Below are positions 1 through 38,050 of a stretch of 64,000 bases of DNA, piece after piece. Location: positions 34,823 to 98,822 of the forward strand of contig JAQGDQ010000769.1 in NCBI GenBank assembly GCA_030141605.1, read 5' to 3'. The number at the start of each line of letters is the position of its first letter. Position 1 is the first letter of the stretch. The position numbers and the translations under genes are program-made. This DNA is from Tubiluchus corallicola. Its lineage: Eukaryota; Animalia; Priapulida. The notes under the pieces are model-generated. The model ran no database searches, was not told where the DNA came from, and was given only the letters and a program-made list of their open reading frames with translations.

Positions 1-235
1 AAACTGACGTGTAGAAGTTAGATTCTATACTTGTAGACCAGTTACATGATTTAAAAGCTATTTACGCTTGCTTAATTTCAGTTAATAAAGTTAACAGCGT
101 GTTAAAACCTTCTGTTATGTAAACGCTTTCATCTTATCAATATCTTTGCTGCTAAACACTAAGTCTGTAACAAACCTAATTCTGCTGTATTCTTCCTAAG
201 ATTATGTGCTCGTCCTTTCAGAAAACCGTAAGTCT

Positions 236-1279
236 CTAACCGTGGTCTTTTACTGTATCCCATCCAAGCTTAATTGGATTTTCTGGTAAATTCGCTAAAG
301 AGACATTCCACACTAACAGAGGTTCAAAATCACATTCACCAACAGCTTCTTTAGCACCTCTTTGGTAATTCATTCCCACTTCTCTTTTGTTACAAGCTAA
401 TGTTTTGTTATCAGGTAAATTAGCGTACAGTGTATACAAGTTGTTTACTGCAAAATAATACATTATATAGGATGAAGGCATCGAACCCATCTTTAAATGA
501 CGTTTTCGTATCCAGGCATTCGTGATTAATCTTTGTCCTGGAATTATCGGAATAAAATTTTCATCTTTCATCACATCAAACACCCAATTGCGAAACTGAT
601 GCCATATTTCTGGAATTGGTGCAAATCCCCAAGTGCCTATCTGATGATATAGAAACACGCCTGCACTATAGCATTCTTCACACAGAGGATTTCTGTGTTT
701 TCCTGTTGTTGAAATCAAAGTTCCTCTCTGCAGTGTTATGCCTCCAATCTCAGATTTTTGATAATATTTTAACAATGCAGCTTTAAGCCATGTATAATAG
801 TGAGGAGAAACTTCCAGATCATCTTCCAAAATCAGCCCGAAGTCTCCCTTTCTTGCAGATGGTTTCCAACAATCATACCATTGCAAGTATGGTCCATAAT
901 GTACAGGGTGGACAATAACTTCCTTTCTACCGAAAACCCATATAAATGAGTTTATGACGTCAAGTGTAGTCGCTGATATTGAACTGTCATTAGCACTTCT
1001 GTCTACACAAATCTTTAGCCCAACTTCATCCTCATTATAGTGACTTGAATTAAGTGACTTTAGAAGCCTCAATAATGACTTTGGCCTTTTGTAAGTCAAT
1101 ACAACGATTTCCAACTTAAATGGATCATTTTCTTTCTTCCCCTTATTAAGCTTAGATGATCTCAAATTCAAAATTCCGCAATGAAACAATGCAAACATAC
1201 AAAAGCACACAAATGTGGCTAATCTTTGCTTCTTATTGCAAACTGATGCTTTTCTGCGCATTATTATTTTGTAAGTCAT
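236..1279 (-). CDS. Uncharacterised GT-A fold (GT2-like) glycosyltransferase, type II membrane protein, single coding exon
   Basis: The ORF is 236..1312 from a TTG; the first in-frame ATG is at 1279. It has a basic N-terminus, a hydrophobic anchor (LATFVCFCMFALFHCGIL), an N-terminal GT-A strand/helix IVVLTYKRPKSLLRLLKSL and a DxD-like motif ILEDDLEVSPHYYTWL. Confidence 0.8.
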   Translation of the reverse strand: MTYKIIMRRKASVCNKKQRLATFVCFCMFALFHCGILNLRSSKLNKGKKENDPFKLEIVVLTYKRPKSLLRLLKSLNSSHYNEDEVGLKICVDRSANDSSISATTLDVINSFIWVFGRKEVIVHPVHYGPYLQWYDCWKPSARKGDFGLILEDDLEVSPHYYTWLKAALLKYYQKSEIGGITLQRGTLISTTGKHRNPLCEECYSAGVFLYHQIGTWGFAPIPEIWHQFRNWVFDVMKDENFIPIIPGQRLITNAWIRKRHLKMGSMPSSYIMYYFAVNNLYTLYANLPDNKTLACNKREVGMNYQRGAKEAVGECDFEPLLVWNVSLANLPENPIKLGWDTVKDHG

Positions 1280-1727
1280 TCTAGATGTTAAAAAAAAACT
1301 TGCTCTTCGCAAGTTCTAAAATTGGGTGTGCTTTTCGGAATATGCTTACTAAATAAATCCTTCGCTTTAAGGTTTCCGCAACTAATGTGCTACTAGACGT
1401 ATCGCACTGGAGTAGAGAAAGAGTATTCTGCATCGAGTAGAGAAATATCGTACTGTGTTAAGTAGTTTTTGTCTTTGTTATTAGTTAAAATCCCTGAAAT
1501 AATCATAATTTTGTAGATAACAAAGTTGCATTGTGAGATCATTGAGTTGATGATTATGATGATGGTACTGATGATGAAGTGACACAGAAGCTCACATTTA
1601 ATATGATTTTTTACGAAGTAAAACTTTAGCAGATATGTGTGCACATTTGACTGTTTTCATGTTGGCCATAATACCTTACGTCACATTTTAAGCTTGAAAG
1701 TTACGTCAGATATTTGACATTGTGAAA

Positions 1728-3750
1728 TGTAAAGTGGTGTCTTTTTCCTTTTTTTCTTGCTTACTCAGTTTGTTTGTCAGTAGAATAAAAGCATTAAAAT
1801 GTTAATTGATCTTTCAGTAAGCTTTGTATTCAGAAACAGGTACACATAAACCACAAGGAAAACTCCGCATTTCAAAAGCATTAGTATCAGTCTCGCAACG
1901 TTACCAAAGTTAAGTGCGCTTCATACTCATATTGCATAAGTTACTAATTACTATCACCCACAAGGAACGCCGTCATTACAAAGATGACGTCACAGCTGCT
2001 CCTGGCCTTCAACCTAAACCCGAAATTCTTGTACAAATGGCCAGTTTCTTATTAGTACATAATACATTTTATGGCTTGCAAGATATATATAATTATTTGA
2101 TTTTGTGAAATGGATTGAGGCGTACATATGTCACAACTTAATTGGTCACTTACAACACACTTCTAATCGCAACACCAAATGAAAGCCCACATATAAGTTC
2201 CTATTCGTCCGTAGCAGTAGCCTTAAATTATTTATCTGTGAACGTTTTCGAGTCATAAGCCTCTAGAGTGCAGGATCACCTCTTGAGCTTTTTGTGATCC
2301 GGGACAGAGAAATTTACAAGATTTTGTAAAAATGTCCAAAACGCAGCCAAGATGGCCTAAAGAATCATGCCTGAAAGTTTGCCAGCTGTATCAAAATTAA
2401 GCCTTAGATTCAGATTTAATAATTATAGTTAACACTTCAACTATACTGTGAAGGCATTTCACAATATAGTTGAAGTGTTAGTAATTAAACATTCCTGCCC
2501 GTCAATCTCCAATATCCAAATTCCAACTTTACAAAGTCCAAAGTCTACTTTAGCCAAAATTTTTTGCTCATTTTTGAATACGTGTTGGAATACCTGATGT
2601 GGATTATGTAAAGACGATAAGTATTACTCATTAAATAAACTGGGGAATATTTAAGCTAACAAAACAAAAAAGATATATTAAAATGTCGGATGCTGGCATA
2701 TTTTTGGCCAAGATCAAATGGGATGAGTCACATTCTACCAACAGTGGGCTACAGTTGTCCAACTAGAATGATGCAATAGATACTATTTTGATAATCACTA
2801 TGGTTATTTAAGCTGTACTACAGTAAGCTGTGTGATGCGGTAATGTGGTGGAACTTGTTTAATCAGGTTTTTGGGTGTGGTTTGACAAGAGTAGTAGGCC
2901 TACACTGTAATAGACAAAAACTTACAGCAAGAAAAGAAACTAGCCTGGCAGAAATAAACTTGGTCAAAGTAATCATGTTTAGGGACTATCCATTGGATAC
3001 TTTTCAGAGTACTACGCCATGATGTGCCATTTTGAATTTTTGTACTACTATGCAGCGGACAACAATTGTCTGAAATGGAATTCTGGATATTATTAATCAT
3101 TTAACTATTACTGTTTGTTAAAATGTATTGCCAATGTGATATACTTGAATAAAATAAAGTCGTGTAAAATAACTGGTTTTCGTGGTAGACTTAACGATAC
3201 AAGCCTTTAACTTTTCAATTAGTCTTGAGGTAGTTGTTAAATTATTGTTACACCGTTTTACCAAGAATGGGTATATATACGCTTGCTCAAGGAATTTCAT
3301 GTGATACAGTATTTATACCTGTTCTCCGACTAAATGAATGAATAACAGTAACATATAAAAATTCACATATTCGTGTATGAAAAAATGAAATACTTGTTTT
3401 ACTATTGTAATAAAGATTGTTTTAACACTGTTTAACGGTGCTGCTGTAACGACCCAGTACAAAAAATTAGTTGACATTCCTGGGTCTGCTGGTTAGTTTG
3501 TTTATATTTCTTTCAATATTGCCTTGGTGAGACTTAACTTACTTTATTATTATTCCTATTTGTAATGCTTTGAATTATGATGTAACATTTAGCTGTTTCT
3601 CTTCTGCTAGTTTAAGCACATTTAAATTAGGTACCTGGGATGGGCCTGACCTTCACATCATTGTTTGAACTTCAGTCACAGCCTAGTTTTACCTATGCGT
3701 GTTTTACCTGTGTGACTATATAGTTGTCGACCTAGTTTTACTGCTGGATG
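1728..3750. repeat. Left arm of a ~2.0 kb near-perfect inverted duplication
   Basis: Reverse complement of 7856..9898. Spurious ORFs are mirrored: 1914..2108(+)/9521..9715(-), 2900..3100(-)/8521..8721(+) and 3118..3300(-)/8321..8503(+), each pair differing by only 1-2 aa. Confidence 0.97.
2430..2480. repeat. ~51 bp near-perfect palindrome (hairpin); second copy at ~9141..9191
   Basis: taacacttcaactatactgtgaa-ggcat-ttcacaatatagttgaagtgtta: 23 bp stem with one mismatch. Confidence 0.85.
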
Positions 3751-3769
3751 AATGATTAGCCATTTGCTG

Positions 3770-4680
3770 CTAAAATACTTGAAAAAATCGCATTTAATCA
3801 ACTGTCCTCTTTTCATATACAAAACAAAGTTTTATAAGACTATCAATTCGGTTTTCGAAAGTCGCATTCAACAGCATTAGCATTAATTGAAATAACTAAT
3901 AAAGTGAAAGGTATATATGACATGTATCGTCTTCATTTCATGTATCAATATCATAATTCACTATTTCCACCAGCTTTTCAGTCATACTTTAGCCCAGGTT
4001 CAAATCAACATGATCATTACACAAGGTATCCAGTCTGAAACTATGTACTGCCTCTTCCAAAACAAATTTAAAGAAACGTCATCAAAACAAAATGCTATTA
4101 AAATATGGTCATCAATTCCGCGTGAAATGGAATCTCTTAATCTTTATCAATTTCAAAAAGCATCAAAGAATTACTTACTACAAAGGTATAATTAGCTAAA
4201 AATTTTACTAATCCTGATCTTTAATTACTGACAAAAATTATTTTTTTCTAATGTACGCTATAACTGATGAAAATACTACGTGTAACAGATTTTTGCTTAC
4301 AAATTCGTGCACGTGTCGCCATCTGTGGCGGGAATGTAAAGCTTATAGTTTTGGCCAGTTTTTCTGTTTTTTACCTGTTAGTCACCTGTGCTCTGAACAG
4401 TCGGGTTAATCCACTTTAGAGTATATTTGGGACATTTATGTGCTTATTTTGTTACAATGAAGCTTTCAGTGGTATTAACCTCTGTTGAAAAGTTTCTGTA
4501 ATTACACGAGGGATATGTTAATTGATAATTGCTTCACTTATCTGGTGGAGGACTCCAAAGGTTAATGCTACTTCCTCCTCCTCACAGTGACTCGTTTATT
4601 TATATTTTATAATGTAACAATTATTTGTATGTATGTTATATGTACGATTTGCTGTGAAATAAATTCATAATTCATAAAAT
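3770..4680 (+). mobile_element. Degenerate 3' fragment of a CR1/L2-type LINE
   Basis: Translates to YQFGFRKSHSTALALIEITNKV (RT domain) and AIKIWSSIPREM...FQKASKNYLL (typical ORF2 C-terminus). Ends with aataaattcataattcataa. Confidence 0.7.
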
Positions 4681-5787
4681 CCAATATTTTAATCAAAATC
4701 ATACAAACTTTGTCCAGCTTGCTGATTACACTCAAGCAATATTGCTGCACTCCGTTTTACTCGGTTTCCTAAGAATAGTTGCCAAGATGTATTTAAAACT
4801 ATGTAAAATAGTTATAGTCCGGTTTGTTAGCCAAAAAAGAAGACTGGGTACAGCTTCCAAGCTCTCGTGAATTATTCTTCACGCCTTTCACACAGCGTTT
4901 TGGATATTTTTATAAAAATCTGCGTTTTAGGCCGCTGTCCCTGGACACAAAAAGGCCAAGAAGTGGCTCTGCTTTTTGGAAGCTTATAATTCCAAAACGT
5001 ACACACAATTGACACACATGTGTACTATTAGGGACCAATAGGAAGTTATGTGTATGCTTTAATTTGACGGTGTGATTAGTGACTTTGGAACAAACGAAGT
5101 GACCAAATTACGTCATCAGTACCACTAAATCCATTTCACAACCTCTAAGATCCAAAATCTATTATTAGTCCATAACTTGCAAACAAAGTCATAAAATGTG
5201 ACGAAATGTATTATGTATTTCAATACTCAATAATGTGTACACCCATTTTTGACCACTAGCGAAAACTTCTCATAATTCTGTCATATTGTTATGAATATTT
5301 ATTTTATATTTCGTGTAGTAGCCAAACAAGTCTTTCAAATCTGGTCTCGTCTCTTCTTTTTTACCAGGACACCCAGACCGTTTCAAAAAACGTTTTTATT
5401 ACATTTTTTCCAAAATTTGTGGGAAGTAGTTGCGGAAAGTAGTATTCTTCGTGGAAACAAGGTATGCCTTTATATGCCACTGCCGAATACTCTTTCCACT
5501 GATATAACAGATCTACGTTCACACTGTCTCGTTCTTATAACACCTCAGCTTAAATTTTGCAAAAAAGTGCGACAAAATCCAGCCCATGTCTATTGATACA
5601 ATTAAAACTGTAACTATTACACAACATGGCAGTTCAGTGCTCACACATTGAAAACTGTAACTTGTGATAACAAGGCTTAATATGCAATTTGATTGGATAA
5701 CAAGGAAGTGGTACTAATGGCTGGAATAATAAAGTGGCAGAAATAGTGTTTTTTAGCTCGCAAAGGCAAGGAGTGGGCTAAAATAAA

Positions 5788-6915
5788 ATGTCAAGAAAAT
5801 ATGGATTTGTTTGTACATACAGGAAACTGTTTTTTATTTGTTTCATATATCCTTGCTTAAAAAACATTTACATGGCGACTCAGCAAAAAACGATTTCAGT
5901 CAGCTCAGAAAGATTTCCGGTTGTTCCAGAATGTACAGAAAACGACACCAAACTGCGAAGAAAAGTAGATGTAGATAGCGTACTCGTCAATGTGACCAAA
6001 AATGAAAAAGTTGTCAGTATTTTTCCAAAATACTTGAATAAACTTCTCCATTCGCTGAATGACACCACGTTTTACATAACCATGGGCATGTTTCCAGGTC
6101 GGCTGGGCAATCACATGTTTCAATATGCCTCACTGTATGGAATAGCAAAAGCAAATCAGCTAACGCCAATACTGCCTGATCGGTTTCCTTTATACAGGAT
6201 ATATCCCAAACTATCTATTCCAGTAATGTCATCGTGGAATTATATCACCTACAGAAAAGTATTTCGTCGAGTTCGATTTAAGTGTAACTATAAATTTTGC
6301 CCACAATCTAGCAACCTGAGAAAGTACGTTGGAAGCAGCAAAAATATTAGTTTAAAGGGGTATTTCCATTCCTACAAATATTTTAATAAATGGAAAGATG
6401 ATATTAAAGAGCAGTTTAGATTTCGTCAAGAAACAGTTGCAAAAGCCAGAAATATTCTGTATTCTCAATTAGACATGAAGTTTAATTTTCGTAAAGGCAC
6501 TCAGTTTAATATCACGTTGATTGGAGTTCACGTTCGAAGGGGTGACATTAAGAAAACGAATTTGCACGTTCCCACAAAAGAATATTTGACAAGATCTATA
6601 TTATACATGAGAGAAAGGTATGTGAACTCCGTGTTTGTAATTATCGGTGACAATACAGCTTGGAATAAGAGAAACATGGAAGACTTTGACGTTGTTGTCA
6701 TGCCAAACACTTGTGATCCTGTAGTTGACATGTGCATTGTATCTCACTTGTGTGATCACGTGATTACAACGGTGGGAACTTACAGTTTTTGGTGTGGATA
6801 TTTATCAAAGGGAAGTGTACTATATTTTCGAGATACGTTTTTTGATAGTCATAAAGATAAAACTAGCCAAACCACTGCAGACGATTATTTCCCACCAGAA
6901 TGGATTGGCTTATAA
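5788..6915 (+). CDS. GT11 alpha-1,2-fucosyltransferase-like protein (FUT1/FUT2-like), copy A, single coding exon, 375 aa
   Basis: N-terminal anchor KLFFICFIYPCL; GT11 motifs GRLGNHMFQYASLYGIA, GYFHSYKYF, IGVHVRRGD and CDHVITTVGTYSFWCGYL; C-terminal DYFPPEWIGL. Confidence 0.95.
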   Translation: MSRKYGFVCTYRKLFFICFIYPCLKNIYMATQQKTISVSSERFPVVPECTENDTKLRRKVDVDSVLVNVTKNEKVVSIFPKYLNKLLHSLNDTTFYITMGMFPGRLGNHMFQYASLYGIAKANQLTPILPDRFPLYRIYPKLSIPVMSSWNYITYRKVFRRVRFKCNYKFCPQSSNLRKYVGSSKNISLKGYFHSYKYFNKWKDDIKEQFRFRQETVAKARNILYSQLDMKFNFRKGTQFNITLIGVHVRRGDIKKTNLHVPTKEYLTRSILYMRERYVNSVFVIIGDNTAWNKRNMEDFDVVVMPNTCDPVVDMCIVSHLCDHVITTVGTYSFWCGYLSKGSVLYFRDTFFDSHKDKTSQTTADDYFPPEWIGL

Positions 6916-7855
6916 TGACAAAAGTAGCAGCCGTAAGGGACGCAGACTGAACTAGTCGTTGGTAGGCGCTGAGTGCACTGGTTACAGTTGGTTATATTCC
7001 AGAGCCGAGCTGAATCAGTATTTAAATGTAACCAGCTGTCCTGCCTCAGACAACAGAGGCGAGGGTCTAAGTAGTCGACTCAACAGTATGATATTGTTCG
7101 TGGTGTGATCAAGAATTTAGAACAGCTCAACACAACATAAATGTTTTAACAGTAATTATTAAACAAAATGAAACAGTAAATCTTATTAATAATTGGCTCA
7201 ATAATTAAATAGTTCAGCTTGTTTTTACTATAGTAATACTCAAAGCAAAGTGACACACAAAAACAACATATTGTACTACTACGTTCTGCTATATAAAAAA
7301 GGTAGCACGCAAATACTCAAAGTCTAAGTTTGGTATATAACCTAAACATCTGAACTGGGGGCATGTTTTTAGCACTGGCAATAATATTACCAACTGATTA
7401 TGAGAGGTATCTAAAAGCCTAACTTTCGGGCCATCCCGTACATGCTAGCATTCAAAACCGAATCCTCTACTTGTGCCGTAAGTAGTCACGTGACTAGCGG
7501 AACGAATATTGCAATTTGCGTGTTGCAGTGTAGAAGTCCAGTGCTGTAAGGAGACTAATGCTTCTATCTCCAATCAGTTTATTGTCAGGCCCGTTATAAG
7601 TAGCTACAAACGAAATGAACAAGTTCAGAGTCTTACCGGTGCTGCATTGCTGGATACTTTCCCAGACACAACCACGTCTCTCCCAGAAAGCACTGTCAGC
7701 TTGCAAATGTCACGTCGTATCTAATCCGTGAATCTGCGCATGATTTTAACTCTTTTGATCACTGCCGACGAAGAGAATATTGTGAACGTTTCACCAGAAA
7801 ACTTCACTCTAGTTAAACATTGCAGGTTACCTTGGCGCTGGCCTTCCTTCTCGAC

Positions 7856-9898
7856 CATCCAGCAGTAAAACTAGGTCGACAACTATCTAGTCACACAGGT
7901 AAAGCACGCATAGGTAAAACACGCATAGGTAAAACTAGGCTGTGACTGAAGTTCAAACAATGATGTGAAGGTCAGGCCCATCCCAGGTACCTAATTTAAA
8001 TGTGCTTAAACTAGCAGAAGAGAAACAGCTAAATGTTACATCATAATTCAAAGCATTGCAAATAGGAATAATAATAAAGTAAGTTAAGTCTCACCAAGGC
8101 AATATTGAAAGAAATATAAACAAACTAACCAGCAGACCCAGGAATGTCAACTAATTTTTTGTACTGGGTCGTTACAGCAGCACCGTTAAACAGTGTTAAA
8201 ACAATCTTTATTACAATAGTAAAACAAGTATTTCATTTTTTCATACACGAATATGTGAATTTTTATATGTTACTGTTATTCATTCATTTAGTCGGAGAAC
8301 AGGTATAAATACTGTATCACATGAAATTCCTTGAGCAAGCGTATATAAACCCATTCTTGGTAAAACGGTGTAACAATAATTTAACAACTACCTCAAGACT
8401 AATTGAAAAGTTAAAGGCTTGTATCGTTAAGTCTACCACGAAAACCAGTTATTTTACACGACTTTATTTTATTCAAGTATATCACATTGGCAATACATTT
8501 TAACAAACAGTAATAGTTAAATGATTAATAATATCCAGAATTCCATTTCAGACAATTGTTGTCCGCTGCATAGTAGTAAAAAAATTCAAAATGGCACATC
8601 ATGGCGTAGTACTCTGAAAAGTATCCAATGGATAGTCCCTAAACATGATTACTTTGACCAAGTTTATTTCTGCCAGGCTAGTTTCTTTTCTTGCTGTAAG
8701 TTTTTGTTTATTACAGTGTAGGCCTACTACTCTTGTCAAACCACACCCAAAAACCTGATTAAACAAGTTCCACCACATTTCCGCATCACACAGCTTACTG
8801 TAGTACAGCTTAAATAACCATAGTGATTATCAAAATAGTATCTATTGCATCATTCTAGTTGGACAACTGTAGCCCACTGTTGGTAGAATGTGATTCATCC
8901 CATTTGATCTTGGCCAAAAATATGCCAGCATCCGACATTTTAATATATCTTTTTTGTTTTGTTAGCTTAAATATTCCCCAGTTTATTTAATGAGTAATAC
9001 TTATCGTCTTTACATAATCCACATCAGGTATTCCAACACGTATTCAAAAATGAGCAAAAAATTTTGGCTAAAGTAGACTTTGGACTTTGTAAAGTTGGAC
9101 TTTGGATATTGGAGATTGACGGGCAGGAATGTTTAATTACTAACACTTCAACTATATTGTGAAATGCCTTCACAGTATAGTTGAAGTGTTAACTATAATT
9201 ATTAAATCTGAATCTAAGGCTTAATTTTGATGATTGGATACAGCTGGCGAACTTTCAGGCATGATTCTTTAGGCCATCTTGGCTGCGTTTTGGACATTTT
9301 TACAAAATCTTGTAAATTTCTCTGTCCCGGATCACAAAAAGCTCAAGAGGTGATCCTGCACTCTAGAGGCTTATGACTCGAAAACGTTCACAGATAAATA
9401 ATTTAAGGCTACTGCTACGGACGAATAGGAACTTATATGTGGGCTTTCATTTGGTGTTGCGATTAGAAGTGTGTTGTAAGTGACCAATTAAGTTGTGACA
9501 TATGTACTCCTCAATCCATTTCACAAAATCAAATAATTATATATATCTTGCAAGCCATAAAATGTATTATGTACTAATAAGAAACTGGCCATTTGTACAA
9601 GAATTTCGGATTTAGGTTGAAGGCCAGGAGCAGCTGTGACGTCATCTTTGTAATGACGGCGTTCCTTGTGGGTGATAGTAATTAGTAACTTATGCAATAC
9701 GAGTATGAAGCGCACTTAACCTTGGTAACGTTGCGAGACTGATACTAATGCTTTTGAAATGCGGAGTTTTCCTTGTGGTTTATGTGTACCTGTTTCTGAA
9801 TACAAAGCTTACAGAAAGATCAATTAACATTTTAATGCTTTTATTCTACTAACAGACAATCTGAGTAAGCAAGAAAAAAAGAAAAAAGATACTTTACA
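7856..9898. repeat. Right arm of the ~2.0 kb inverted duplication
   Basis: Begins catccagcagtaaaactaggtcgac (reverse complement of the left arm end at 3750) and ends ...gaaaaaagatactttaca. Small indels relative to the left arm at ~7900-7915 and ~9231-9238. Confidence 0.97.
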
Positions 9899-10859
9899 AT
9901 AATTAAAGATGGCCATTCAAATAATTACAGCATGAGTTCTTGGTACCAAACAGTAACCTAATCGTAACTGCAGCTTTCACTGTCCATAAGAGTTTGTGCA
10001 CAAGATATCACCAAGTTGAGTATTCACAATTGAGCTCAAAAGTAAACTGTTACTTATCTGTGGAGTGAGCGCTCATTCCATTGGCAATCACTGCGGTACA
10101 CTCCATGGAAGGGATACCATCTCCAAAACATCGCATACCACGCTCGACAGTACTAGGCGCCTGTCCGTCCACACCATGACAACAAGTGCAGGATTGCTTA
10201 TACTGTGTAGAAGGCTTTCTCCACTCAATTGCATCACAACACATTGTCCATTAGGATAGTATTACCCAACTGTCCAGGACTTTTTCAAAATAAAACATCA
10301 GTTCAGCCAATTTCAACAGATAATTCTTAGGTTTGTCCTCAAAATTATAAACCCAACACTTTCCAGCTTATCCCCCCCACACTTCTCAATATCACAAATA
10401 ATGTTCCTGTTACTGGAACAGTTCACTACATTTCAAGCTAGTTTGATACTTTAGACATGTAACTATAGCACTATATAGGCTGAATGAGAAAGTGACACAC
10501 TCCTGCAATAAAGTAATAGTGCCCAAGTGAGGAACACACTTTCAAAATGGCCTTCATAACATGGCCATTTAGGTTACTTGTGTGGCAGGTGTAGTTCATG
10601 GGTGCCGAGACTACATTATTAAAACAACGGCAGCAAAAATTAAAGTAAAATATGCAGGTAGTTTCCATATACAAAACCATACACAACAGAGTTAGGCCCC
10701 TTCAATTGAACAAAACATTTATCATTGAACCAAGTTGCATACTATAACGTACAGATGTGGTTGCTTTAACTAAGGGGCGGACCTAGTCTGGTCCATCACA
10801 ATCTGCACTTCAGTTTCAAGAACCAAATTGAGATAATCAATCATTCGACTGGCATTTTC

Positions 10860-11120
10860 CTGGACTCAACTCCGGATTTTTTCGAAATTTTCGAAACTGC
10901 CTGTGGAAAAAACGTGTTATGGGACTCTTGGAAGGAGGGTATAGAAGAACTGGGCCACACGATGGAAACATCCACCATGAGGGGCTGTGATTTGTTGATT
11001 GGAGGTTCCATTTCGGGAGATTTTCGCTTGGAAAACAGCTGATGCGAAGCCAGTGATCTGACGTCTCTGCTTATAACCTAGTGTTGACGAAGCCTTTGTA
11101 GCTTTTACTAAAGAACTGAC
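10860..11120 (+). repeat. Diverged internal fragment of the Helitron-like family seen at 50664..51527
   Basis: ttttttcgaaatttt...ttttcgcttggaaaacagctgatgc...tgacgtc...gcttttactaaag parallels ~51115..51390. Confidence 0.55.
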
Positions 11121-11212
11121 TCACATTTCTGAGCTAATGATTAATACGTGATTTCATTCCATGCCTGCTGACGTTTAATTGTATGGCGGTCTTAGCAGCC
11201 TAGAAATGTATA

Positions 11213-12126
11213 GGGAAAAACGGGCTAATGTCTGACAAAATTTCTGTTTATGTTTTACAGTTTCGTGTTATGTTAATGGCTGATAAACTAAATAAATGAA
11301 TCAGGAAGTACAGGAAAGAGAGTTAGCTGCACAAGATGTAAAATGCTGTAATAATTAAAGCTTTGCTACCTCATTTCAAAGGCAGTGTATGGCAGTGTTG
11401 GACAGTTATCGAGGTAATGTCACACCTAATTCAGAACTTTGTGGTTATGTCGTTTAAATTCTTGAAAATAATTTGCAATGCCGAGACTGATCAGTGACGA
11501 CATGAGAGAAATGTTATTGAACAGAGTAGGCAAGCACCAATACTCCTACAGTCATTTTCTCCCTATTGTTCATCTGAGAATATTATGCACAGATTGCATT
11601 TACTCATAGCTCCACAGCTAAAGTTTCTCTTTCTCACTCTTTACATTTTTACATTTGCAGCATTTTCGCGAGCCGTTTCGATAATGGTTTCTCCCCATAT
11701 TTCTAAACGATTAAGGTCATAATATTATTATATTTCGGCAAAAACGGCCAGAACAGTCAACGTTATTTACAACACAAACGTTAATTCTGGTGAAAAGTCG
11801 GACACTGCTTCAGGGAGTTGTATAATAAACAGACAAATATTTTGACTTACAAAGTGTGGTATAAAAGTATTAGAGAAGAAGTAACTCACAAGACAGTCAT
11901 TCCTGTAGAGGCTGCAGCAAATAATTATCGCGTTAGGTCTGTTTATCAACGAATTAAAAAAAGTTAATACAGTTAAGAAAAACTTGTATTTTGGGACCAT
12001 ACAAGAAGACGAACTGTTAGGCCATGGTGAAAATGCTATTATAAAGACGTGATGTGGGTAAAAAACGTAATTTAATGATTATTAGGAAAACATAAAATCA
12101 TTGTCCGACATTAGCCCATTTTACCC
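11213..12126. mobile_element. Non-autonomous TIR DNA transposon (pogo/Tc1-mariner-like deletion derivative)
   Basis: 26 bp TIRs gggaaaaacgggctaatgtctgacaa / ttgtccgacattagcccattttaccc with 3 mismatches; TA on the left flank only; decayed HTH-start-like sequence near 11300. Confidence 0.7.
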
Positions 12127-12459
12127 AGTTAAACAAAATGTAATCTAAAATACTTATCAATTTTATAATGTAATCCAGTACTGTAAAAAACAATTCCACA
12201 CAACTGGACTAGCACAAGAAGTTGACTTGTTAACAATCTGCTTGTGCAAACAGTAATGAAACTTCCTTGACCCAAGCATGTGGAAAATGGAAAATAATTT
12301 CTGCGCAGGATTCCGGAAAAACAGAAATATGAGCCACGTCTTCCTTATACACAATTTCGAGTAATTATCAGCATGCTACTTGACTCAGATAGCGTAAAAA
12401 TGTGATAAATAGTTTAGTGTTATTTCGAAAATTGATCATTGTCTTTTTCTTCGTAGAAA

Positions 12460-15444
12460 ATGCGATTAAGGTTATATAATACGAAGTTTGTGTCAAATAA
12501 AATCTTACTTGCTCCGGTTTGTGGTGTAGTTTGCAGTGTTATTGTTTTAGTTGCTAATTATGCGAATTTGCCAAGTGACAACCCATGCTACATGCAAGGT
12601 AATTATAATAACTTGTTCATTTTCAGTGATTAGTAACATCGAGATGAAATTGATGAAAAGTAGTGAACAGTCGCAGTTCTGTGAAATGGATATTTTAAAT
12701 ATCATTAATTAAGATTCTGCATTTAGTACAATGAATTTAGCAGAATCTCATTGGAAATCAACCGTTTACAATTATTTCTCCACCACCATGGTGAATGAAT
12801 CTAGAGTCATGGAACTTTGTGGCTGAACACCTGAAGGTGAAAAGGCAGTGAAATGGTGACGAGTGACTTTGGGACAAAACACAGTGCAATGTTGGTGTTG
12901 CACGAGCTCAAGGGCATTTCAGCAGTATAGAGTGCGCATACTCGTCTTTGCAGATAAAACCTAGGCTCAATACTTTTAATGTTTAACGCTTCCAGCATCT
13001 GTATATGAAAATACAGAAGAGTATTTAGAAAGGTTAGTCTCACAGCTACCCGAAACTCAAACGCAAACACATCCTCAGTCGAACCAACCAAAGCTACTTG
13101 AACGTCTGGGCAATGATACACCCATTTCCTGGTATCCCTAGTCACAAATGTACAAGTGACAGGACAAAATTACCGTGATATGTCAATACAAAAAGCCTTA
13201 CACATTAAACGTATTTGGCCTAAGTCAAACAGCAAAGATAAGTTTGTGCACTCTTTACCACTGAAGTGCAGTTGACCTTGTACAACACCCACAGTTCACT
13301 GTGTTTTGTGGAATTCAGTAACAAAATGGCAGTTCCCTAATATTGACAGTTCTGTTACTACTTACATATTTGTTTGTCTCTTTGTGGAGAGTAGCATAGT
13401 TTCGTGCCTATCAAGATATGTAATCTGTATCGTAAATTGCTAAATTATCTATATAATGCTGTCTTTTGGCTATCTAACTTCTGAATTGTATCTCGCTGTT
13501 GTTTCTAAATTCTGGTAAATTTCTTTGTTTTAGGTGCCTTGATAATGAACAGTTTGTTTCAAACAGGTCGGCAATGAATTTCATTTTGATATAGTTACAT
13601 CTACTTGCCAAATATGCATAATTCAGCTAACACATTGTTTTACATTTCTTTCTGTCAGATGCCAAATTATGTCACCACAGCTCATTGCTCACACTTAGTG
13701 ATGCCTAGGTGACCGAAATGAATTTTTATCAGAAGTTCCTGCCTCATTAATTAATTATGACTGTGATCGCCAGAACTTCGTAAACCGTTAATTAATTTTA
13801 CCAGTTATTACCCATTACCGGTGGAGAAAATAGATACTGAAAAATTTTGGACTAGTTGGGATTTGAACCCAAGTCTGGAATTAGTATTCCATGCAGTACT
13901 ATATAAGCTACCTACAGTGTACACTTTAGAGCTCACAAGTAGCTAAAAAACCAACGACACCCCCTGTACTATTATGGCATTATAGGGATACTTTAGGTAT
14001 CAATATTTTCCCCGTTAAGCTAGCAACTAATGATAACATTAGTTAATTATGACTGTGACTTCCAGAATTATTTAATTACCGATTAATTACTATCGACAAG
14101 AGGTGTACAGACAAGAACAGCAGATACAGATCTGAGGATTATCACAGTACTTCACAAAACATCTTCAAAATTGAAAAAATCTCAGTGACATTTCGAAATG
14201 GGTCAATTTTCCGTTTCATAGTTGTTCACGAAATTTCTCAAGCATTTCCGTGTTGTGCTAACCTTGTTTCAAGCATTCGTAGGTTGTGATACAATATCTG
14301 CATTTTGTGGAATTGGGAAAAAGTAGGCATGTGACACCTATTGCGCCTATCCCAAGGTTACTGGATCTTTGAGTAGTCTTTGACTGAGAGATTTTTCATT
14401 CTCGTATATGGGAAGGTCAAGAATAAACAGATATGTCAGTTTTTTAGACCTAATTATTCCAAATTATACTTAATAATTTTCTTTTCAGAAGATGTGCAAA
14501 AGAAAGCTTGTAACGATGATTTGAACTCACGCAACTTTATTCGTGGGCCATTTCTAGGCCAAAATTGTTCATTCCGGGCTGAGAAAGTTGCTTATCGAAG
14601 AAAAGTGGTAGCAAAAACAGCATGTGAGAGACAATATTCAACTACAGTTTTTGGTGGAAAATTTAACATGTGGACACAAACATACATTGATGACATTCAT
14701 CGTCTGGCTTATTGTTCAATACCAAAAGCAGCAACCACAAATTGGAAAAGAATTTTAATTAGTTTAATGGCTGCTGATGCAAGTCTTGCTAATGATTCGT
14801 TAGTTCAGCCACGTGATTTAGATGAATTACCAGGATACACACCTCATCAACGTGCCCTGAAAGGTGATCTAATAAAACAAATATCAAGATATTCTGTCTA
14901 CTTGCAGTCATTTGTACTAAAAAAATATAAAAAGTTTATGTTTGTTCGACACCCATTTGAACGTCTTCTAAGTGCTTTCAAAAATAAAATTGAAAGTAAG
15001 AGCTTCTCTTATGAAATTTCACGCATGACTCAAGTTCTCCGAAAACAAAACATAACAATTTCAGATCATATTGTAAGTTTTACAGATTTTGTCAGGTACT
15101 TGGTCGTTACAAATCCAAAACTGTATAACGAACACTGGGCTAGAATGACTGACCTATGTGATCCTTGTACTGTTAAGTATGACTTTATTGGAAAGTACGA
15201 GCATATTGAACAAGAAAGCAAAGATTTTTTGAAAATGTTGAATGTTTATCACAGACTACAGTTAACCAAAAAATATGAATTTCACAACACTAACCACACA
15301 ATCAGGTTAATGAAACATTATTACAGCATGTTGCCTAAAAAACTCTTGAGAAAACTGTATAAGATTTACAAAGCTGATTTTGTCATTTTTGGATATCAGT
15401 TTCCTGCATTTATGCATCGATTTGTAAAACCGGGAATCATTTGA
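12460..15444 (+). CDS. Carbohydrate sulfotransferase (Sulfotransfer_2; CHST8-14/HNK-1ST family), join(12460..12598,14489..15444), 364 aa
   Basis: Exon 1 MRLRLYNTKFVSNKILLAPVCGVVCSVIVLVANY...YMQ-g|gtaatt (phase 1) supplies the membrane anchor, and the acceptor ttttcttttcag|aa at 14488 restores the frame. Contains 5'PSB CSIPKAATTNWKR, 3'PB FMFVRHPFERLLSAF, HW...LCDPC...YDFIGKYE and LYKIYKADFVIFGY. Confidence 0.9.
12800..13580. mobile_element. Penelope-like (GIY-YIG end) retroelement relics in the sulfotransferase intron
   Basis: Minus strand IQMLEALNIKSIEP and plus strand ALHIKRIWPKSNSKD resemble the LEAL.I....P.LN terminus of Penelope GIY-YIG domains. Confidence 0.4.
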
Positions 15445-17584
15445 TAACATTTTTTATTGCAATGAATTCACTCACATTTAGTTAATATTTTTGATTCATG
15501 TTTATAGTTAGTTTGAAAGCTCTGTGGGTTCAGTCATGCTTATTGATTACATTTATGAAAAAAATTATTACGCATTGTTAAAAATAAATTTTAAAAAAGA
15601 CTCTTACAACTCTTTGGTATGCAACTCTTTGGTAAACAACTAATTACACTAAAATATTAGCTGATTGATTTATATTGAAACTTGAGTACGATAGATTATA
15701 GATGGCAAGAACTGAAAAGGCTAGCTAGATAAATAGGAATTTATCATTATTATATAAAGCACAATTTAATATGAAAATACTATTTTTGACTCGCTTCAAA
15801 ATTCTTTGTAAGTGTGTCTCGGATGCCATATAGAAAGATATAGAGATTATCGAGTCAACTGCTACTGTTGGGCATACTCATAATATAATGATAACACAAG
15901 TAGATGGAGAATGTAGTTTGCCTTAAAGTGATAAATTTTAGCATTAGTGCACACAAACCCATTTTTGAGTTCAGAAGTGAGTAACACTTAAATACAGGTT
16001 AAAAATATTCAAAAATATAGAAAAATAATTGCATGTACGTGCGAGCATTAAGCTTTATTTCACATCACATTGGCACTCACCGAAAACTTTTATCTAATAA
16101 ACGGAAAAAATTACAAATTTCTATCCAGTTAATCATTTATTCAAATCAAATTTTCAAGACCCAAATTCCTGTCTACATGCACTGCCTATTGTCATTCTTG
16201 AGAAACACGATTCTGACTAAATGTTCTCAGATTGAACTTTTGCAATTTTTTTACAGTATGGTAAGGTTTTGTTGTTTTCTCATAATACAGGCTTTCTTGA
16301 CTTATGAATAATGTCATTTTGAACATTTGTTATATTTTTAAAAATAGTTTTGACAAAAATCAGAATTAATCTACACAAAAGGTTTCTACATAAATGTGTA
16401 CTTTTGCAGCCACTGCTACTAACATCCATATGTTCCGACTCGAGCTTTTCAAGAATGACATTAGACAGCAGCTGTAGGTGGGAACAGTCAGCTGACAAAA
16501 ATGTTGTAAAACTTTCCTGCTTTAGAAGAAATTGTATATAGCACCATACATAATAACAGGCTACAAATGAAAATTCTGTTGGACGTCACAAACCACCTCT
16601 ATCTACTGAGGAAAAAAGGGGATCCATAACAGGAACTGTAGTTAAGTCAAATAGATCCTCATCATATTAGAGGTTGTTGAGATTAAATAAAACTAATGCA
16701 GTCATTACGTTTCGAGGCACTTGCTGCAACTTTAGCTGCATAACCACTTTCAAAATAAATCAACTTTAAAAACTTTTATGATATCTGAAACTATGAGAAT
16801 TCCACAGTTATCATTGATACTTGTGTTACAAGCACTGAATCGTTTTGATATCTCAGATATTTTTAAATCATTAAATTTTACAAGTGAAGATATCTTAATG
16901 CTCTTTTCAGATGGCAAAAGCTGCCGAACAGATATAAAATGATTTCCGCCATCTACCTATACCAGCCAAAGCATCTCTCTATAGGATCACTCTGCAAGTT
17001 ACCAGTTAACAAATACTCAAAGTCTGGAATATTGCAGAAGATATAGTTTGACAAAGCATGTTTGAGTCACAGCAGTTAATGTTTCACGTGATAAAACTGG
17101 GTCCCACAATTTGCAAGATTCTGCAAAATCTTCAATGTATTTTAGCTTTGCATTTTGAGCAGTTGTAACATGTTCGATGTAACCGTTTGATTTTTTAATC
17201 CATCTGTACGTTTCTTTAACATTTAAGTTGTACTAATAATTTCTTGCACGTTGAAAAAACTCTGCAGTCTGTCTCCAATCTGGTTTATCTAGTGAATCAA
17301 CAGACTTTGTTACAAAGTCGTCCTCAACAAAGTAGAGTAAACAAATTCTGGGTGAGTGTTCGGTGGTCGAGCAGTATGCGCGTGCTTGGCTTAGCTCTGT
17401 AAACATGTTATTTTGCAGACTGTACCTTTCTACTGGCTTCGCTAAATTATGAGCTAACCGCCGAATCAACGAGTGGCAATGTAAAGTTATCGGAATTGTT
17501 TTAGCATAAAATTATTAATTATTTCATTACTATAACGTTGGCAGTATTGGAAATTATACACAGTATACCACAGAATACGATTGA

Positions 17585-21990: not shown

Positions 21991-22647
21991 AATTTTATAC
22001 TTTTTATTGCATGTAAGTTACTTGTGTGTCAAAGTACGTCTAATCTTAGTTAAGTGAAATATTGGTCTCATATGGCTCAAGGCTGAGCTTCAATTAGATG
22101 TAGTTGCGTTATTTCCGCCTGAATATCTTATTAATGAAACGAAAATAAGGTTTATCCATATTTACTATAACATTGTTACTTTTAAATGTAGCATAAGCTG
22201 AGAACAGGCTAAAACATTAAATTGGGACCAAGCATAAGTAGACCTTGTACAAATTTACATTCAATTTCACTTTTAATCTAAAATTTGAGTTTTGTTTTCA
22301 CGGAATGCAACACTAGATAAAGTCTAAATGCGTGTTTATGTTTATTCATCCGAAACTTTTCATTATTATTTGGCGTTACTAGTATAACTGAAAACCCTCC
22401 TACAACAATATTCTTCAGACAACAGCACACAATATATATATATAGGTGTTCTACGCACGACCATAATCATTCCTTTCACAAAATAGCTGCAAAGACTGTG
22501 TAAAGAATGCGCATTTCAAAAATAGACTAATACATAGCAATATATTTGTTGAATTTTGTGAATAGATGCGTATACGATCAGAACTATTCAGAACACAATA
22601 GCTGCTAACTGAGTTTTTTAAGAGCTACTGAACTATCTAAAAGACTG

Positions 22648-23682
22648 ATGAAGCTATCTAAACATTACATGAATGTGTTGACACGGCGTGCTTTACAATT
22701 CTTAGGACACGGTTGCTGGTTCTCTTGTTGCTGGTTTCTTATCTGGATGTCTTGGCATGAAAACAACAAATTTAGAGATCAAGTGAACATTAGCAATAAC
22801 AGATTACACTACACTAACCAAACTGAACGAAAGAGTTTGAAAGCAATACATGTGTTTGTATTAGGAAAGATTTCTCAACGAGTTGGATTAGGAAATAAAA
22901 TGTTTAACTATGCTTCAATGTATGGTATTGCCCGTACAAATAACATGAAACAAAGTGTTATGCAAGATGATGAAATAGTGTCTGTGTTTCCCAAACTCAA
23001 CGCTACGCACCTCAGTGATACAGACTTTAAAGAGGGTAATTTTCTTAAGGTGACAGCTAGAAGCTGCTGCTCGTATGATCCCATCATGAAACAATTACCG
23101 CAGCATCGTAATACATCCATTGGAGAGCGAATGCTCATCTCTTATCGTTATTTCCATCATGTTAAAGAAGAAATTCGCGCTCAATTTCAATTCCCAGTCC
23201 AAACAATTTTGCGTGCTCGAACTTTGGTAGCAAATCTGTGCACAGTCAAAGAAATTCCTAATTGTCACGAAATGACAACAGTGGGAGTGCACGTTCGAAG
23301 GGGAGACTTCAATTCTCCCAGGTCAAGTAAATATGGACGGCGTACATCAAGTGTTGATTATATTAAGCGCGCAATGAGCTTTTTCAAAAGCAGGTATCAT
23401 GATGTTGTATTCATAGTGGCTGGTGACGACCCAAGGTGGTGTGTGGAGAACCTTAATTTCCCAGATACAGTCGTTGTTGAAAGCAATGAACCAAAGATTG
23501 ACTTGTGCATTTTATCTCATTGTGATCACGTGATAATGACTGTTGGAACATTTGGTTGGTGGGCTGGTTATCTTTGCAAAGGAACCGTTGTTTATGACAG
23601 GGATTCAGCAGAACCCGGATCTCGTTTTGACTCTTTACTGCGCGTTGACGATCGCTACCCTGAAGAATGGATTACTATGTAG
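22648..23682 (+). CDS. GT11 alpha-1,2-fucosyltransferase-like protein, copy B, single coding exon, 344 aa
   Basis: Anchor FLGHGCWFSCCWFLIWMSW; motifs GLGNKMFNYASMYGIA, VGVHVRRGDF, FIVAGDD and CDHVIMTVGTFGWWAGYL; C-terminal YPEEWITM. Confidence 0.95.
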   Translation: MKLSKHYMNVLTRRALQFLGHGCWFSCCWFLIWMSWHENNKFRDQVNISNNRLHYTNQTERKSLKAIHVFVLGKISQRVGLGNKMFNYASMYGIARTNNMKQSVMQDDEIVSVFPKLNATHLSDTDFKEGNFLKVTARSCCSYDPIMKQLPQHRNTSIGERMLISYRYFHHVKEEIRAQFQFPVQTILRARTLVANLCTVKEIPNCHEMTTVGVHVRRGDFNSPRSSKYGRRTSSVDYIKRAMSFFKSRYHDVVFIVAGDDPRWCVENLNFPDTVVVESNEPKIDLCILSHCDHVIMTVGTFGWWAGYLCKGTVVYDRDSAEPGSRFDSLLRVDDRYPEEWITM

Positions 23683-30130: not shown

Positions 30131-32283
30131 GGGGCAACATTATGTGATTTCAGTTGATTGAATGATTAAATGATTGAAATGAAAAGTCGTGGTGACACAA
30201 ATTGAATGGTATAATTATCATGACCCCAGATGGTGTGACCCCTGACAAAAGGTCAAGGGTCCAAATGACACCTGCTATGATTTTATTAAAATGAAATACA
30301 ATTCCTAGGTAATCAAGCATGAAGGTTGAAGACAATATTGAGACAATCAGACCAAACACCCATGGGGACAATCAGACCAAACAGCAATGTTACTTTTAAG
30401 TATAACACTGTATTACGTAACATATTGCAGAATCTTCGGTTTCTGACTTTATCACAAACAGTTTTCTAATTTGTCACAAAGATTCTGCAACGGTTGCAGA
30501 ATGCTTTTGTTCATGGAAGTCAACCATTGATTATTTATTAAGGTTCCATACTTAAAAGAACTCAAATGTCTTTTGATACGACAATGAATAATTTCATAAC
30601 ATAGTAACTGAAGCTAGTGTCATCAAACTTGCTGGGCAGACATCTGGGGCAGGGGGTAATTTGAATCTCAGTTAAAACTTTATGACTCGCATTTTTTATG
30701 TCTTTTTCAAGTTCACACTGTTTGGACATTATGCAAAATGCTTCTGTCGGGTTCCACTAGTTGCTACAAAATAATATTAATTCGTATTTTGTACTAGCAT
30801 AATGTAGTACAAAACTATGTTAATAATTCATTGTTAGCAATAGAGTTGTTAAAATTTCTGCCAGAAAAACTCTTGCACCGTTTTTGAATCTGCAGATACA
30901 CTAACTGAGCATAAAATTAATTACCAAAGAGATATAAATGTTGTTCAGTCGAATTTGTCGAAAGATTCTGGGGTTTCGTCACTGTCAATAATTTACTTCA
31001 ATAATATGCCAGCAAAGCACAGAAATTATTAGCAACAGCTTATCAAGAATTTATTAAATTTGAAGACACATCCCAATATAAATGACATAAGAATGTGGCT
31101 GTCAATACCAATAACGAAAAACAGGTCTGACATGTAGTACTCTTTAAACCAAGCTGATATCACCGAGTACCTATGTCATCCTCGTGTATTTATAACTTTC
31201 AGCATGAATTGACAATTAAATTCTAGAAACAAGGTGTGGAATAACTGTTGAAAATAGAATACATACGTAAATATATTTATTTTCTTATTGCATATTAAAC
31301 ATTGAACAAGAAAATTCTGCAAGCAGAATCTTAATGTAAACAAACATTTCAGTTCTCAGAGCTGTCGATTTGCTGTTGGTTATAAAATGGTTTGTGGGCT
31401 ATATGAGCGGCCCTGTAAGCAAACATAGATAGAAACAACAAGCACAAAAATCAACAAAATCAGCAGTGTTACAACTTTACATATATATGTATGCTTGCAT
31501 ATGTTATATATAAAATATAAATAATATATATATATATATGTATGTCCTGGTATATATATGGTTGGGCATACCTAGTTTTGCTGTAACGTTTTGCTATTTG
31601 ACCTGTATATATAGATCAGAACACTTTTTATAATCAACGACGTATGTATAAATATATTTAAAAACAACAGTGTTAATTACAGAATTATTTATTTCTCAGC
31701 TGATACCAACAACTAAAACTAAAATAATGGCAGAGAAATTTTTCACACTAATATTGGCTTGCCTAAAAGCGAAATACAATACAAACATTTACGACACGAA
31801 GTTTTCTACTTTATATTGTGTTTCGTAGACTTAGGTATAGATAACCACCTCAAACTTTAACTATTCACGCTAACAAACTACACACAAACATTCGGCATGT
31901 TTGCCCGGCATTTGGCGAGGTAGAATTGAGCTTAAGTCTGCAGTACGCTACTGGCATAGATGATGAAGGTTTAAGTAAGACGACGTCCTAACAGCGTTTG
32001 AAGAAGATAATGTAGAAAGATTTGAAGAAAGGTATTATAACAGCGCAAACAACGTAAAAATCAACAATAGTAACGCGGAAGAGAGACGAGCACCAGGGTT
32101 CCTGGGCTTTTCATATTATACCATATTTTGTTGAAAAAGATAAAGTGACGATTAAAGACATAGAAAGACAACAGCTTGATAGCGTGGGAGTGAGTTAAAT
32201 GAGATGATCATTTTAACTATTTTGCTGTTATTGATATTCTATCCTAAATATCTAAAGCGTTGATCCCGTTCATTCTTGAAGAG

Positions 32284-36700: not shown

Positions 36701-38050
36701 AAGCTTGCATGAAAATTTTCATGGGCAACTAGCAGTGAAGAAACATATTTTCACCCATTCTCCACACCTGGGAACACCTTGGAATAGACGTCAGGATATT
36801 CGAATAAAGCAAGGCAAATGTAGGCAAGATATATACATTGAATGCAAAGTGAATGAATTGCTCTATCTATGTTGATTTATCAAGTTACGTTGATTTATGT
36901 GGCCAAGAGAAAACGCGGATATGCAATTAAAAGAAAAAGCGGCCTTTGTCCACATATCACTGAAATTAATATCTATTATATATTACTAGCCAAACCCAAC
37001 GTAAATAATTTTACACATAAACGAACACACATCTCACACCATCAATACCACACAACGCCACGCCACCACTCCTCTCACATCACACCACCCACACCACTCA
37101 CAGCACTGTACTAATATCACCCACAACACACCCAGAGGTAGCGGAGATGATTATAATTGAACAGCCATACACAAGTACTGATGGATGCATTCGTGCAGCT
37201 AAGATTAAATGCCCCGCAGGAAAAATTCTAACTAGGGCTTTAAAAAGCGATGGTCATTATTTTTCCATTATTACTGAATTGTAGACGAGATTGCTGAAGA
37301 CTATAATCTTTCATTGTGCGCAGGCCGTAAACTGCGCACTCATCTCAAACACTTCAGAGGAGACCCAAAATCATTTCAAATTGTTCTTTTAAGAGCAGAG
37401 AGTTGCTCAGGTGGTCAGTAATTTGTCCTAACTTATTTTTGTAAACATGGCAACTTTGAGAGGCAAAGACGAAGTAAACTAATCATATGCCGCACCCTCT
37501 GTCATGATTTTGAAAACATTAATAAAAAAGTCGTTTTTTGCAGAGTGAATGAAAAGATGGCAATATTCTACCAAAAAATGATCACTGCTAATGTACGTGA
37601 GTATACAAAGCGAAAATTCAAAGTCCAACTTTGACTTCATATTTGACTAATAAGTGACTCCGTAAATAGGCTAAATAGCAGATTTTACGTCCTTTATTAA
37701 AAGTCGTCGCAATAACAGAATTTAAGTAATGCAGGTGTAATTATTTTTAAGGTATAGGTGGACCTAGATTTTCAAAAAATAAATACGTCAAACAAGTGGA
37801 ATTACACAGGAAAATTATGGAATATACTTGGAGTGAGTAATTTCCCCAAATCTTTATGCGACTTCATTATTAGAAAAACTTTTATTTTCTGATCAAAATT
37901 TGACAACTGCATATACTAAAGTTATCCATCCTATCTCTAGTAATTTCCTGGTCATGCGTTGTTTGCCTGTAGTAAGATTGCTAACTAAGATGTAAAACTG
38001 AACGCAAATGTCTATGGTACTGAGTAACGTTAGAAACAAAATTACACGAA

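What the first reader, a model, noticed from the sequence alone, without database searches (positions are those of the whole stretch)
1728..9898. Fucosyltransferase A sits in the spacer of an 8.2 kb palindrome with 2 kb near-identical arms
Seen: 1728..3750 and 7856..9898 are reverse complements with only scattered substitutions and two small indels. The 4.1 kb spacer holds the entire GT11 gene plus about 2 kb upstream. I see no target-site duplication and no transposase, and the arms look like mosaics of older repeats. Established: recombination between inverted repeats inverts the spacer, and palindrome arms can be homogenised by gene conversion. Inference: this is a recent template-switch insertion that brought the gene into the cluster, a giant foldback-type element carrying a glycosyltransferase as cargo, or an invertible cassette that changes the regulatory context of FUT A.
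Basis: partly seen in the sequence, partly recalled or inferred. Interest (0 to 1): 0.75.

Follow-up and report, generated by a model that had tools for sequence, protein, structure and literature searches.

The report
Mirror-copied flank around a fucosyltransferase gene
Two 2-kb mirror-image stretches flank an intact sugar-transferring gene in an invertebrate genome, most likely because a copying accident pasted the DNA downstream of the gene backwards in front of it, probably on one chromosome copy only; this is an ordinary kind of rearrangement, likely neither a gene-carrying jumping element nor a gene switch.

Summary
The palindrome is real: 1728-3750 and 7856-9898 differ by 19 substitutions and 3 indels, around an intact GT11 ORF. 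Public contigs of the same species show that the arm core is low-copy. One contig covers it at about 2.6 times single-copy depth and mixes left- and right-arm alleles, which fits three copies. Two repeat families run on across both ends of the right arm and are cut off at the left arm, so the right arm is likely the donor and the spacer keeps its old orientation. The gene is a long-standing cluster member (sister to the GT11 at 60 kb), not cargo. There is no target-site duplication. The arms differ more in the outer 89 bp, and a two-copy contig leaves the window at 1839: this points to a switch inside a shared repeat, probably on one haplotype. This is the known deletion / normal / inverted-duplication (1-4-3-2 template-switch) pattern. 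The left inner junction was not seen in a listed contig, and spacer flipping could not be tested. The scan noted similar structures in other genomes (unchecked). Low interest.

The parts
236..1315 (-). Intact 359-codon ORF (first ATG 1279, 449 nt from the left arm), head-to-head with the GT11 gene; no Pfam or PDB family; GT-A-like by eye only (recalled)
1637..1735 (.). Weak fragment of old repeat 'E' in the left flank
   Evidence: local score 30.0 vs shuffle max 28.2 against 5125-5242; 24.4 vs 20.0 against 2011-2123; weak
1728..3750 (+). Left arm; likely the derived copy
   Evidence: it cuts repeat F at its outer end and repeat G at its inner end
1728..1838 (+). Outer tip: likely an older, separate fragment of repeat F that guided the first switch (switch inferred at 1817-1838)
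   Evidence: 6 substitutions + 1 indel in 1728-1816 vs 13 in the other 1934 nt; X1 contig at depth 168 lies on 1291-1838 and its last 27 nt do not fit
1768..1989 (.). Moderately repeated family 'F' inside the left arm
   Evidence: summed depth about 7600-7900 in 1768-1959; loose ends at 1980-1989
2023..2390 (.). Old repeat 'E' inside the arm
   Evidence: 66% to 4849-5148 inverted, E 2e-31; score 106 vs shuffle max 24
2430..2480 (.). 51-nt hairpin (23-nt arms, 5-nt loop), copied in both arms (9141-9191)
   Evidence: Rfam only 26.8 bits vs gathering 84
2440..3303 (.). Low-copy arm core
   Evidence: flat depth 229.5 from a single contig at >=90% likeness; 8659-9067 also 229.5 at >=85%
3704..3750 (.). 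Head of low-copy repeat 'G', cut at the left inner junction
   Evidence: 3 contigs run on past 3750 with a consensus matching the right-arm flank at 21 of 30 letters, ungapped; 1 contig differs before 3704
3770..4680 (+). High-copy repeat fragment, cut at its 5' side next to the left arm; LINE/RT-like by its translation (label recalled, no Pfam hit); 3' end approximate
   Evidence: summed depth 110,756 in 3751-4159; loose end before 3770
4849..5248 (.). Old repeat 'E' copy in the spacer
   Evidence: X1 contig 4642-5312 at depth 162
5788..6915 (+). GT11 alpha-1,2-fucosyltransferase-like gene A, intact single coding exon, 375 aa
   Evidence: PF01531 E 9e-22; three GT11 motifs present (patterns recalled); best outside hits 37%
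7432..7855 (.). Body of repeat 'G', continuous with the right arm (left end approximate)
   Evidence: X2 contig 7439-7819 with 48 differences; depth 564 and 574 on either side of 7841; loose ends
7856..9898 (-). Right arm; likely the donor copy in its original place
9899..10700 (.). Repeat 'F' continuing beyond the right arm (right end approximate)
   Evidence: X4 contigs 9770-10075 and 9770-9990 and X3 contig 9774-10041 bridge 9898; depth 4602 inside vs 5921 outside

Best explanation
The two arms are a real 99%-identical inverted pair around an intact GT11 gene, and the left arm is most likely a recent backwards copy of the 1.9 kb downstream of the gene, likely made by two template switches and probably present on one haplotype only. 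Inferred steps: (1) synthesis or repair left its template at 1817-1838 inside a short fragment of repeat F; (2) it resumed in the oppositely oriented F copy near 9790-9810; (3) it copied 1.9 kb backwards to 7856; (4) it returned at 3751 with no visible homology, dropping whatever lay between. The gene, its 2 kb of upstream DNA and the right arm stayed in place. The arms are now a passive substrate for ordinary inversion or conversion; no function is needed.
For: Shown: arm identity and uniform inner divergence of 0.67% (13/1934; KS p=0.89). No TSD. The core is covered by one contig at depth 229.5 against 82-96 for five window-identical contigs; the model gives 147-173 for two copies, 229-269 for three, 294-365 for four; X2 gives a ratio of 2.7. 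A 2+1 split is seen directly: 3324-3488 at depth 167 beside a joint 3350>3459 at depth 105. The core contig carries right-arm alleles at 4 sites and left-arm alleles at 4 (1 listed, 3 by subtraction), plus a left allele at 3563 in the next contig, so alleles of both arms exist in the reads. Repeat F bridges the right outer end in 3 listed contigs of two samples; repeat G runs on past the inner end in 3 contigs. Divergence drops after 1816 and a two-copy contig leaves the window at 1839. GT11-A is sister to the window's GT11 at 60 kb. The end pattern equals '1-4-3-2' (PMC5453318, passages) and deletion-normal-inverted duplication with one homologous and one non-homologous junction (PMC10766186, section 6 and passages).
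Against: No listed contig bridges the left inner junction 3750|3751 (16 of 176 pieces shown), and the contig over the left outer end does not continue into the arm past 1838, so the place of the left arm rests on the assembly. No empty-site joint was seen (6 of 6 joints; 15 of 97 shown). The letters of the 27-nt unfitted tail were not shown. Both arms share a base at 1796 that the 7 family contigs lack, which fits one common F source at least as well as two. Where the third copy lies is unknown: the two-copy depth over 1728 would also fit a second haplotype that has the left arm and lacks the right, and the GT11 gene itself sits at about 2.5 times single depth, so a paralogous segment may exist. 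The tool warns that depth is no copy number. X1-X3 are one sample, possibly the assembled one. The lost segment was not observed.
Confidence: 0.72

Rival explanations
1. Assembly error: the left arm is a real sequence from another haplotype or locus that was misjoined here at repeat F and at the high-copy repeat.
For: The contig over 1728 leaves the window at 1839; no listed contig bridges 3750|3751. The region has several near-identical paralogous copies (1000-1120, GT11).
Against: Both arm alleles are in the reads and depth exceeds two copies, so a fold-back of one sequence or a simple hap1+hap2 false duplication does not fit. Two misjoins would be needed. Window alleles shared by both arms also drop out of the contigs inside repeats (1880/9749), so missing junction contigs next to high-copy repeats are expected. 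The window holds no N.
Confidence: 0.1
2. Older inverted duplication, later homogenised by a 1.9-kb arm-to-arm conversion tract ending near 1817, or present on both haplotypes with one arm since lost from the other.
For: A more diverged outer tip is also what a conversion boundary leaves; two-copy depth across 1728; window-specific single-depth contigs right of 10.7 kb show that the other haplotype differs strongly there.
Against: No diverged fourth arm at >=85-90% likeness. Inner differences are uniform, longest identical run 289 nt. The third copy sides with neither arm (5:4), as expected for an outgroup allele; this assumes that contigs keep the majority allele (recalled, not tested).
Confidence: 0.1
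3. A giant foldback or Pack-type DNA transposon with 2-kb terminal inverted repeats that carries GT11-A as cargo.
For: Inverted arms enclose a whole gene; the aligned ends read TG...CA; GT11-A-like sequence has about three copies in the sample.
Against: No TSD. The right end lies inside repeat F. Arm copies (~3) are about equal to gene copies (~3), not twice as many. The core has no family members. The gene is an old local paralog.
Confidence: 0.03
4. A regulated or selected invertible cassette that changes the context of GT11-A.
For: 99%-identical 2-kb inverted repeats 4.1 kb apart can recombine (established knowledge); the left arm lies between two head-to-head genes.
Against: F and G continuity both sit on the right arm, so the spacer is in the ancestral orientation (or flipped an even number of times). 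No recombinase gene or site was seen. The spacer carries 2 kb upstream and 0.9 kb downstream of the ORF with it, so flipping would change little unless the promoter lies outside. About three arm copies suggest that it is not fixed.
Confidence: 0.03
5. Two independent insertions of one high-copy transposon in opposite orientation.
For: Parts of the arm are repeated.
Against: The core is low-copy; no TSD on either arm; the arm ends cut through, or continue into, other repeats.
Confidence: 0.02

Closest known systems
Deletion / copy-neutral / inverted-duplication rearrangement (1-0-1-2-1), e.g. at human F8 (PMC10766186; section 6 and passages seen)
   Same: An inverted duplication separated from an inferred deletion by copy-neutral DNA; one junction at an inverted repeat, the other with little or no homology.
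   Different: Here the scale is 2 kb / 4 kb, the homology is about 110 nt of a ~93-97% identical repeat and not a long LCR, and the deletion is inferred, not seen. That paper derives the pattern from a trimmed inverted triplication; my data cannot tell this route from a direct double switch.
Four-point template switch, type 1-4-3-2 (PMC5453318; passages seen)
   Same: Order of switch points along the sequence (about 1838, 3751, 7856, about 9790); creates an inverted repeat without inverting the spacer; 31% of the high-confidence human-chimp events in that paper.
   Different: That model covers short events within one fork and states that it does not address long-range switches; here the copied piece is 1.9 kb, the range of FoSTeS/MMBIR.
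Pack-MULE / foldback-type TIR elements with captured genes (PMC6431247; passages seen)
   Same: Host sequence enclosed between inverted repeats.
   Different: No TSD, no multi-copy TIR family, ends not at an element boundary, gene not foreign to the locus.

Membership tests
Template-switch inverted duplication (1-4-3-2 / DEL-NML-INVDUP) | Copy is the reverse complement of nearby sequence, with a donor in intact context and a recipient with new junctions | tested here: met
   F and G continue at the right arm and are cut at the left
Template-switch inverted duplication (1-4-3-2 / DEL-NML-INVDUP) | Spacer not inverted | tested here: met
   inner (G) and outer (F) continuity lie on the same arm; an even number of flips is not excluded
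Template-switch inverted duplication (1-4-3-2 / DEL-NML-INVDUP) | Homology or microhomology at one junction, little at the other | tested here: inconclusive
   diverged outer tip and contig exit at 1839 suggest F homology; ancestral sequence at the inner junction unknown
Template-switch inverted duplication (1-4-3-2 / DEL-NML-INVDUP) | Ancestral allele without the copy, showing the deletion | tested here: inconclusive
   three-copy depth fits; no empty-site joint among those shown
Foldback / Pack-MULE-type TIR transposon | Target-site duplication flanking the element | tested here: not met
Foldback / Pack-MULE-type TIR transposon | TIRs form a multi-copy family | tested here: not met
   core covered by one contig at ~2.6x single depth
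Foldback / Pack-MULE-type TIR transposon | Element ends are new junctions on both sides | tested here: not met
   repeat F bridges 9898
Foldback / Pack-MULE-type TIR transposon | Other paired copies with different cargo, and an autonomous partner | not testable with these tools
   no whole genome held
Invertible cassette (site-specific or NAHR-driven) | Both spacer orientations present | not testable with these tools
   only contigs were served; none spans a 2-kb arm
Conversion-maintained palindrome | Patches of arm identity beyond a single-time duplication, conserved between lineages | tested here: not met
   inner substitutions uniform, KS p=0.89; no orthologous locus available, so conservation is untested
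GT11 alpha-1,2-fucosyltransferase | PF01531 domain with intact motifs | tested here: met
   78 bits vs cut-off 23.9; motif patterns (recalled) found; activity untested

The most novel reading that the evidence does not exclude
A segregating inverted duplication has turned one fucosyltransferase of a copy-variable glycan-enzyme cluster into a flippable cassette between two head-to-head genes, so that carriers hold both orientations and differ in surface fucosylation.
Probability: 0.05. Interest if true: 0.65.

Novelty: new member of a known kind. Interest (0 to 1): 0.24.

Why it matters
As it stands, it is a clean small example of repeat-guided inverted duplication in an invertebrate, with donor, recipient and a likely switch point readable from the sequence, and a reminder that a gene between long inverted repeats need not be cargo. 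It would matter more if long reads showed both orientations, or if the copy in the head-to-head upstream region changed expression of either gene; nothing here shows that.

Tried and rejected
No whole genome is held, so the genome-wide search for paired arms could not be run. No RNA holder was listed; this says nothing on expression. Rfam on 1-16000 gave 3 matches, all far below gathering. Pfam on 16 short ORFs and NCBIfam on 4 named no transposase and left repeats E, F and G unnamed. The protein-atlas search gave no answer. A first idea, that the left arm was the donor because repeat E extends left of 1728, was dropped: that match is barely above shuffles and is a separate E fragment, while F and G continuity point to the right arm. 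An old TIR element spanning about 1640-5250 was considered on the same weak match and left unproven. TG...CA ends were rejected as element termini because F continues past 9898. The careful tree did not finish; the quick tree is cited. A paper search for invertebrate glycosyltransferase/sulfotransferase clusters with structural variation gave 3 unrelated listings; the foldback-cargo search gave 1 review. The place look-up in earlier findings was empty. No supplements were read.
Full report
Observation. A self-blastn finds the pair 1728-3750 / 9898-7856 as the best repeat of the window: 97.8% over 2046 columns, 19 mismatches, 3 gaps. The alignment places indels of 3, 8 and 15 nt and shows that 6 of the 19 substitutions fall in the outer 89 nt, against 13 in the remaining 1934 nt (Fisher p=1e-4; simulation 2e-4 for a terminal window and 0.013 for any window). 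The inner 13 are spread evenly (0.67%, KS p=0.89). The 4105-nt spacer holds an intact GT11 ORF. There is no target-site duplication for the whole unit, for either arm or for the spacer.

Setting. The window is a cluster of mostly single-coding-exon glycan enzymes: three GT11, two sulfotransferases, a GT92 and a GT31-like fragment (13 of 16 long ORFs scanned). The named GT11 hits are invertebrate, mostly molluscan, at 37% or less. GT11-A is 55% identical to the GT11 at 60 kb, and the two are sisters among 41 proteins (SH-aLRT 99, quick tree). The gene's lineage therefore has a long history in this cluster, which argues against recent import.

Read evidence. No genome is held. Six runs were listed, all as contigs; three are one sample, possibly the one assembled. 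Four were laid on 3751-16000 and two on 1000-3860. The tool warns that depth is not copy number, so I used only single-contig depths as rough ratios. Five contigs identical to the window have depth 82-96 in X1. The arm core is covered by one 1181-nt contig at 229.5, and no other contig lies on 2440-3303 at 90% likeness or on 8659-9067 at 85%. A simple word-count model gives 147-173 for two copies, 229-269 for three and 294-365 for four. At 3351-3458 the split is visible: depth 167 with the window's sequence and a joint at depth 105 that skips it. The contig carries right-arm alleles at four sites and left-arm alleles at four. So both arms' alleles are in the reads, the core is not a high-copy element, and about one further copy exists. 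GT11-A-like sequence is also at about 2.5 times single depth, so that further copy could lie on the other haplotype or in a paralogous segment.

Donor and recipient. The outer part of the arm belongs to a repeat family (F) whose depth continues beyond the right arm, and three listed contigs from two samples bridge 9898. At the inner end three contigs run on past 3750 with a consensus that resembles the right arm's flank (21 of 30 letters): a second family (G) is continuous at 7855|7856 and cut at 3750|3751, where it abuts a high-copy fragment that starts near 3770 (LINE-like by recalled similarity, no Pfam hit). Both ends of the right arm thus lie inside older elements, and both ends of the left arm cut them. 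I infer that the right arm is the original. Because both continuities are on the same arm, the spacer is in its ancestral orientation or has flipped an even number of times.

Switch point. An X1 contig at depth 168 spans the left outer end from 1291 to 1838, and its last 27 nt fit nowhere in the stretch (letters not shown, 12 of 50 loose ends listed). Taken with the drop in divergence after 1816, the simplest reading is that both haplotypes hold a short F fragment at 1728-1838 and that only the assembled one switched from it into the inverted F copy on the right. This sub-claim is weaker, about 55%: both arms share a base at 1796 that seven family contigs lack, and a second haplotype with the left arm and an insertion at 1839 would look the same.

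Mechanism. Inferred: departure at 1817-1838, landing near 9790-9810, backwards copy to 7856, return at 3751 with loss of the sequence in between. The order is 1-4-3-2 in the four-point model, which makes an inverted repeat without flipping the spacer (PMC5453318, passages; that model is restricted to short events). [quoted passage not shown] My data cannot separate these routes.

Against, and open. No listed contig bridges 3750|3751 (16 of 176 pieces shown). No empty-site joint was seen (6 of 6 joints; 15 of 97). Contigs drop low-copy paths beside high-copy repeats (the window's base at 1880/9749, shared by both arms, is missing too), so these gaps prove nothing, but a misplacement of the left arm keeps about 10%. 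Flipping cannot be tested with contigs, and expression was not testable.

Transposon reading. Cargo-carrying TIR elements such as Pack-MULEs exist (PMC6431247, passages), but three defining features failed here: TSD, multi-copy TIRs and element-like ends. A cargo element would also give two arms per gene copy, while both are at about three copies.

Verdict. A real, recent, probably polymorphic local inverted duplication of a known kind; the gene is a bystander. Earlier notes of this scan describe similar structures in other genomes (e1-9203596, e1-7271538, unchecked, not support). Interest 0.24.

Noticed in passing
window 236-63996 (ORFs 236-1315, 5782-6915, 14377-15444, 22609-23682, 32248-33705, 45552-46283, 46675-47727, 60090-61232): Dense cluster of unrelated glycan-modifying enzymes with mostly single coding exons (3 GT11, 2 sulfotransferases, GT92, GT31-like) in an animal genome; looks like a pathway-type cluster.
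   Followed up: partly
window 236-1315 (-): Intact 347-aa protein with no Pfam, NCBIfam or PDB match, GT-A-like by eye. X1 contigs show several close variants over 1000-1120 (depths 94, 166, 286-339), so it seems recently multiplied.
   Followed up: partly
window 6049-6707: GT11-A contig at about 2.5 times single depth with 8 differences (X2: 17 in 749 nt): at least three near-identical copies in the sample.
   Followed up: partly
window 5788-5860: GT11-A's N-terminal anchor is weaker (best 19-residue hydropathy 1.36) than that of the 60-kb paralog (2.26); the 22-kb paralog gives 1.19.
   Followed up: no
window 43823-45545 and 48867-50658: A second local duplication, direct, about 1.7 kb, 90.5% by blastn, bracketing the GT31-like and Gal-3-O-sulfotransferase genes.
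   Followed up: no
window 38050-38408 and 41969-42337: A 360-nt inverted pair at 90% identity, 3.6 kb apart.
   Followed up: no
window 5283-5948 and 10712-15977: Long contigs identical to the window at single depth, so the other haplotype is absent or strongly diverged there.
   Followed up: no
window 2430-2480 and 9141-9191: 51-nt hairpin with 23-nt arms in the low-copy core; only a sub-threshold miRNA-family match.
   Followed up: partly
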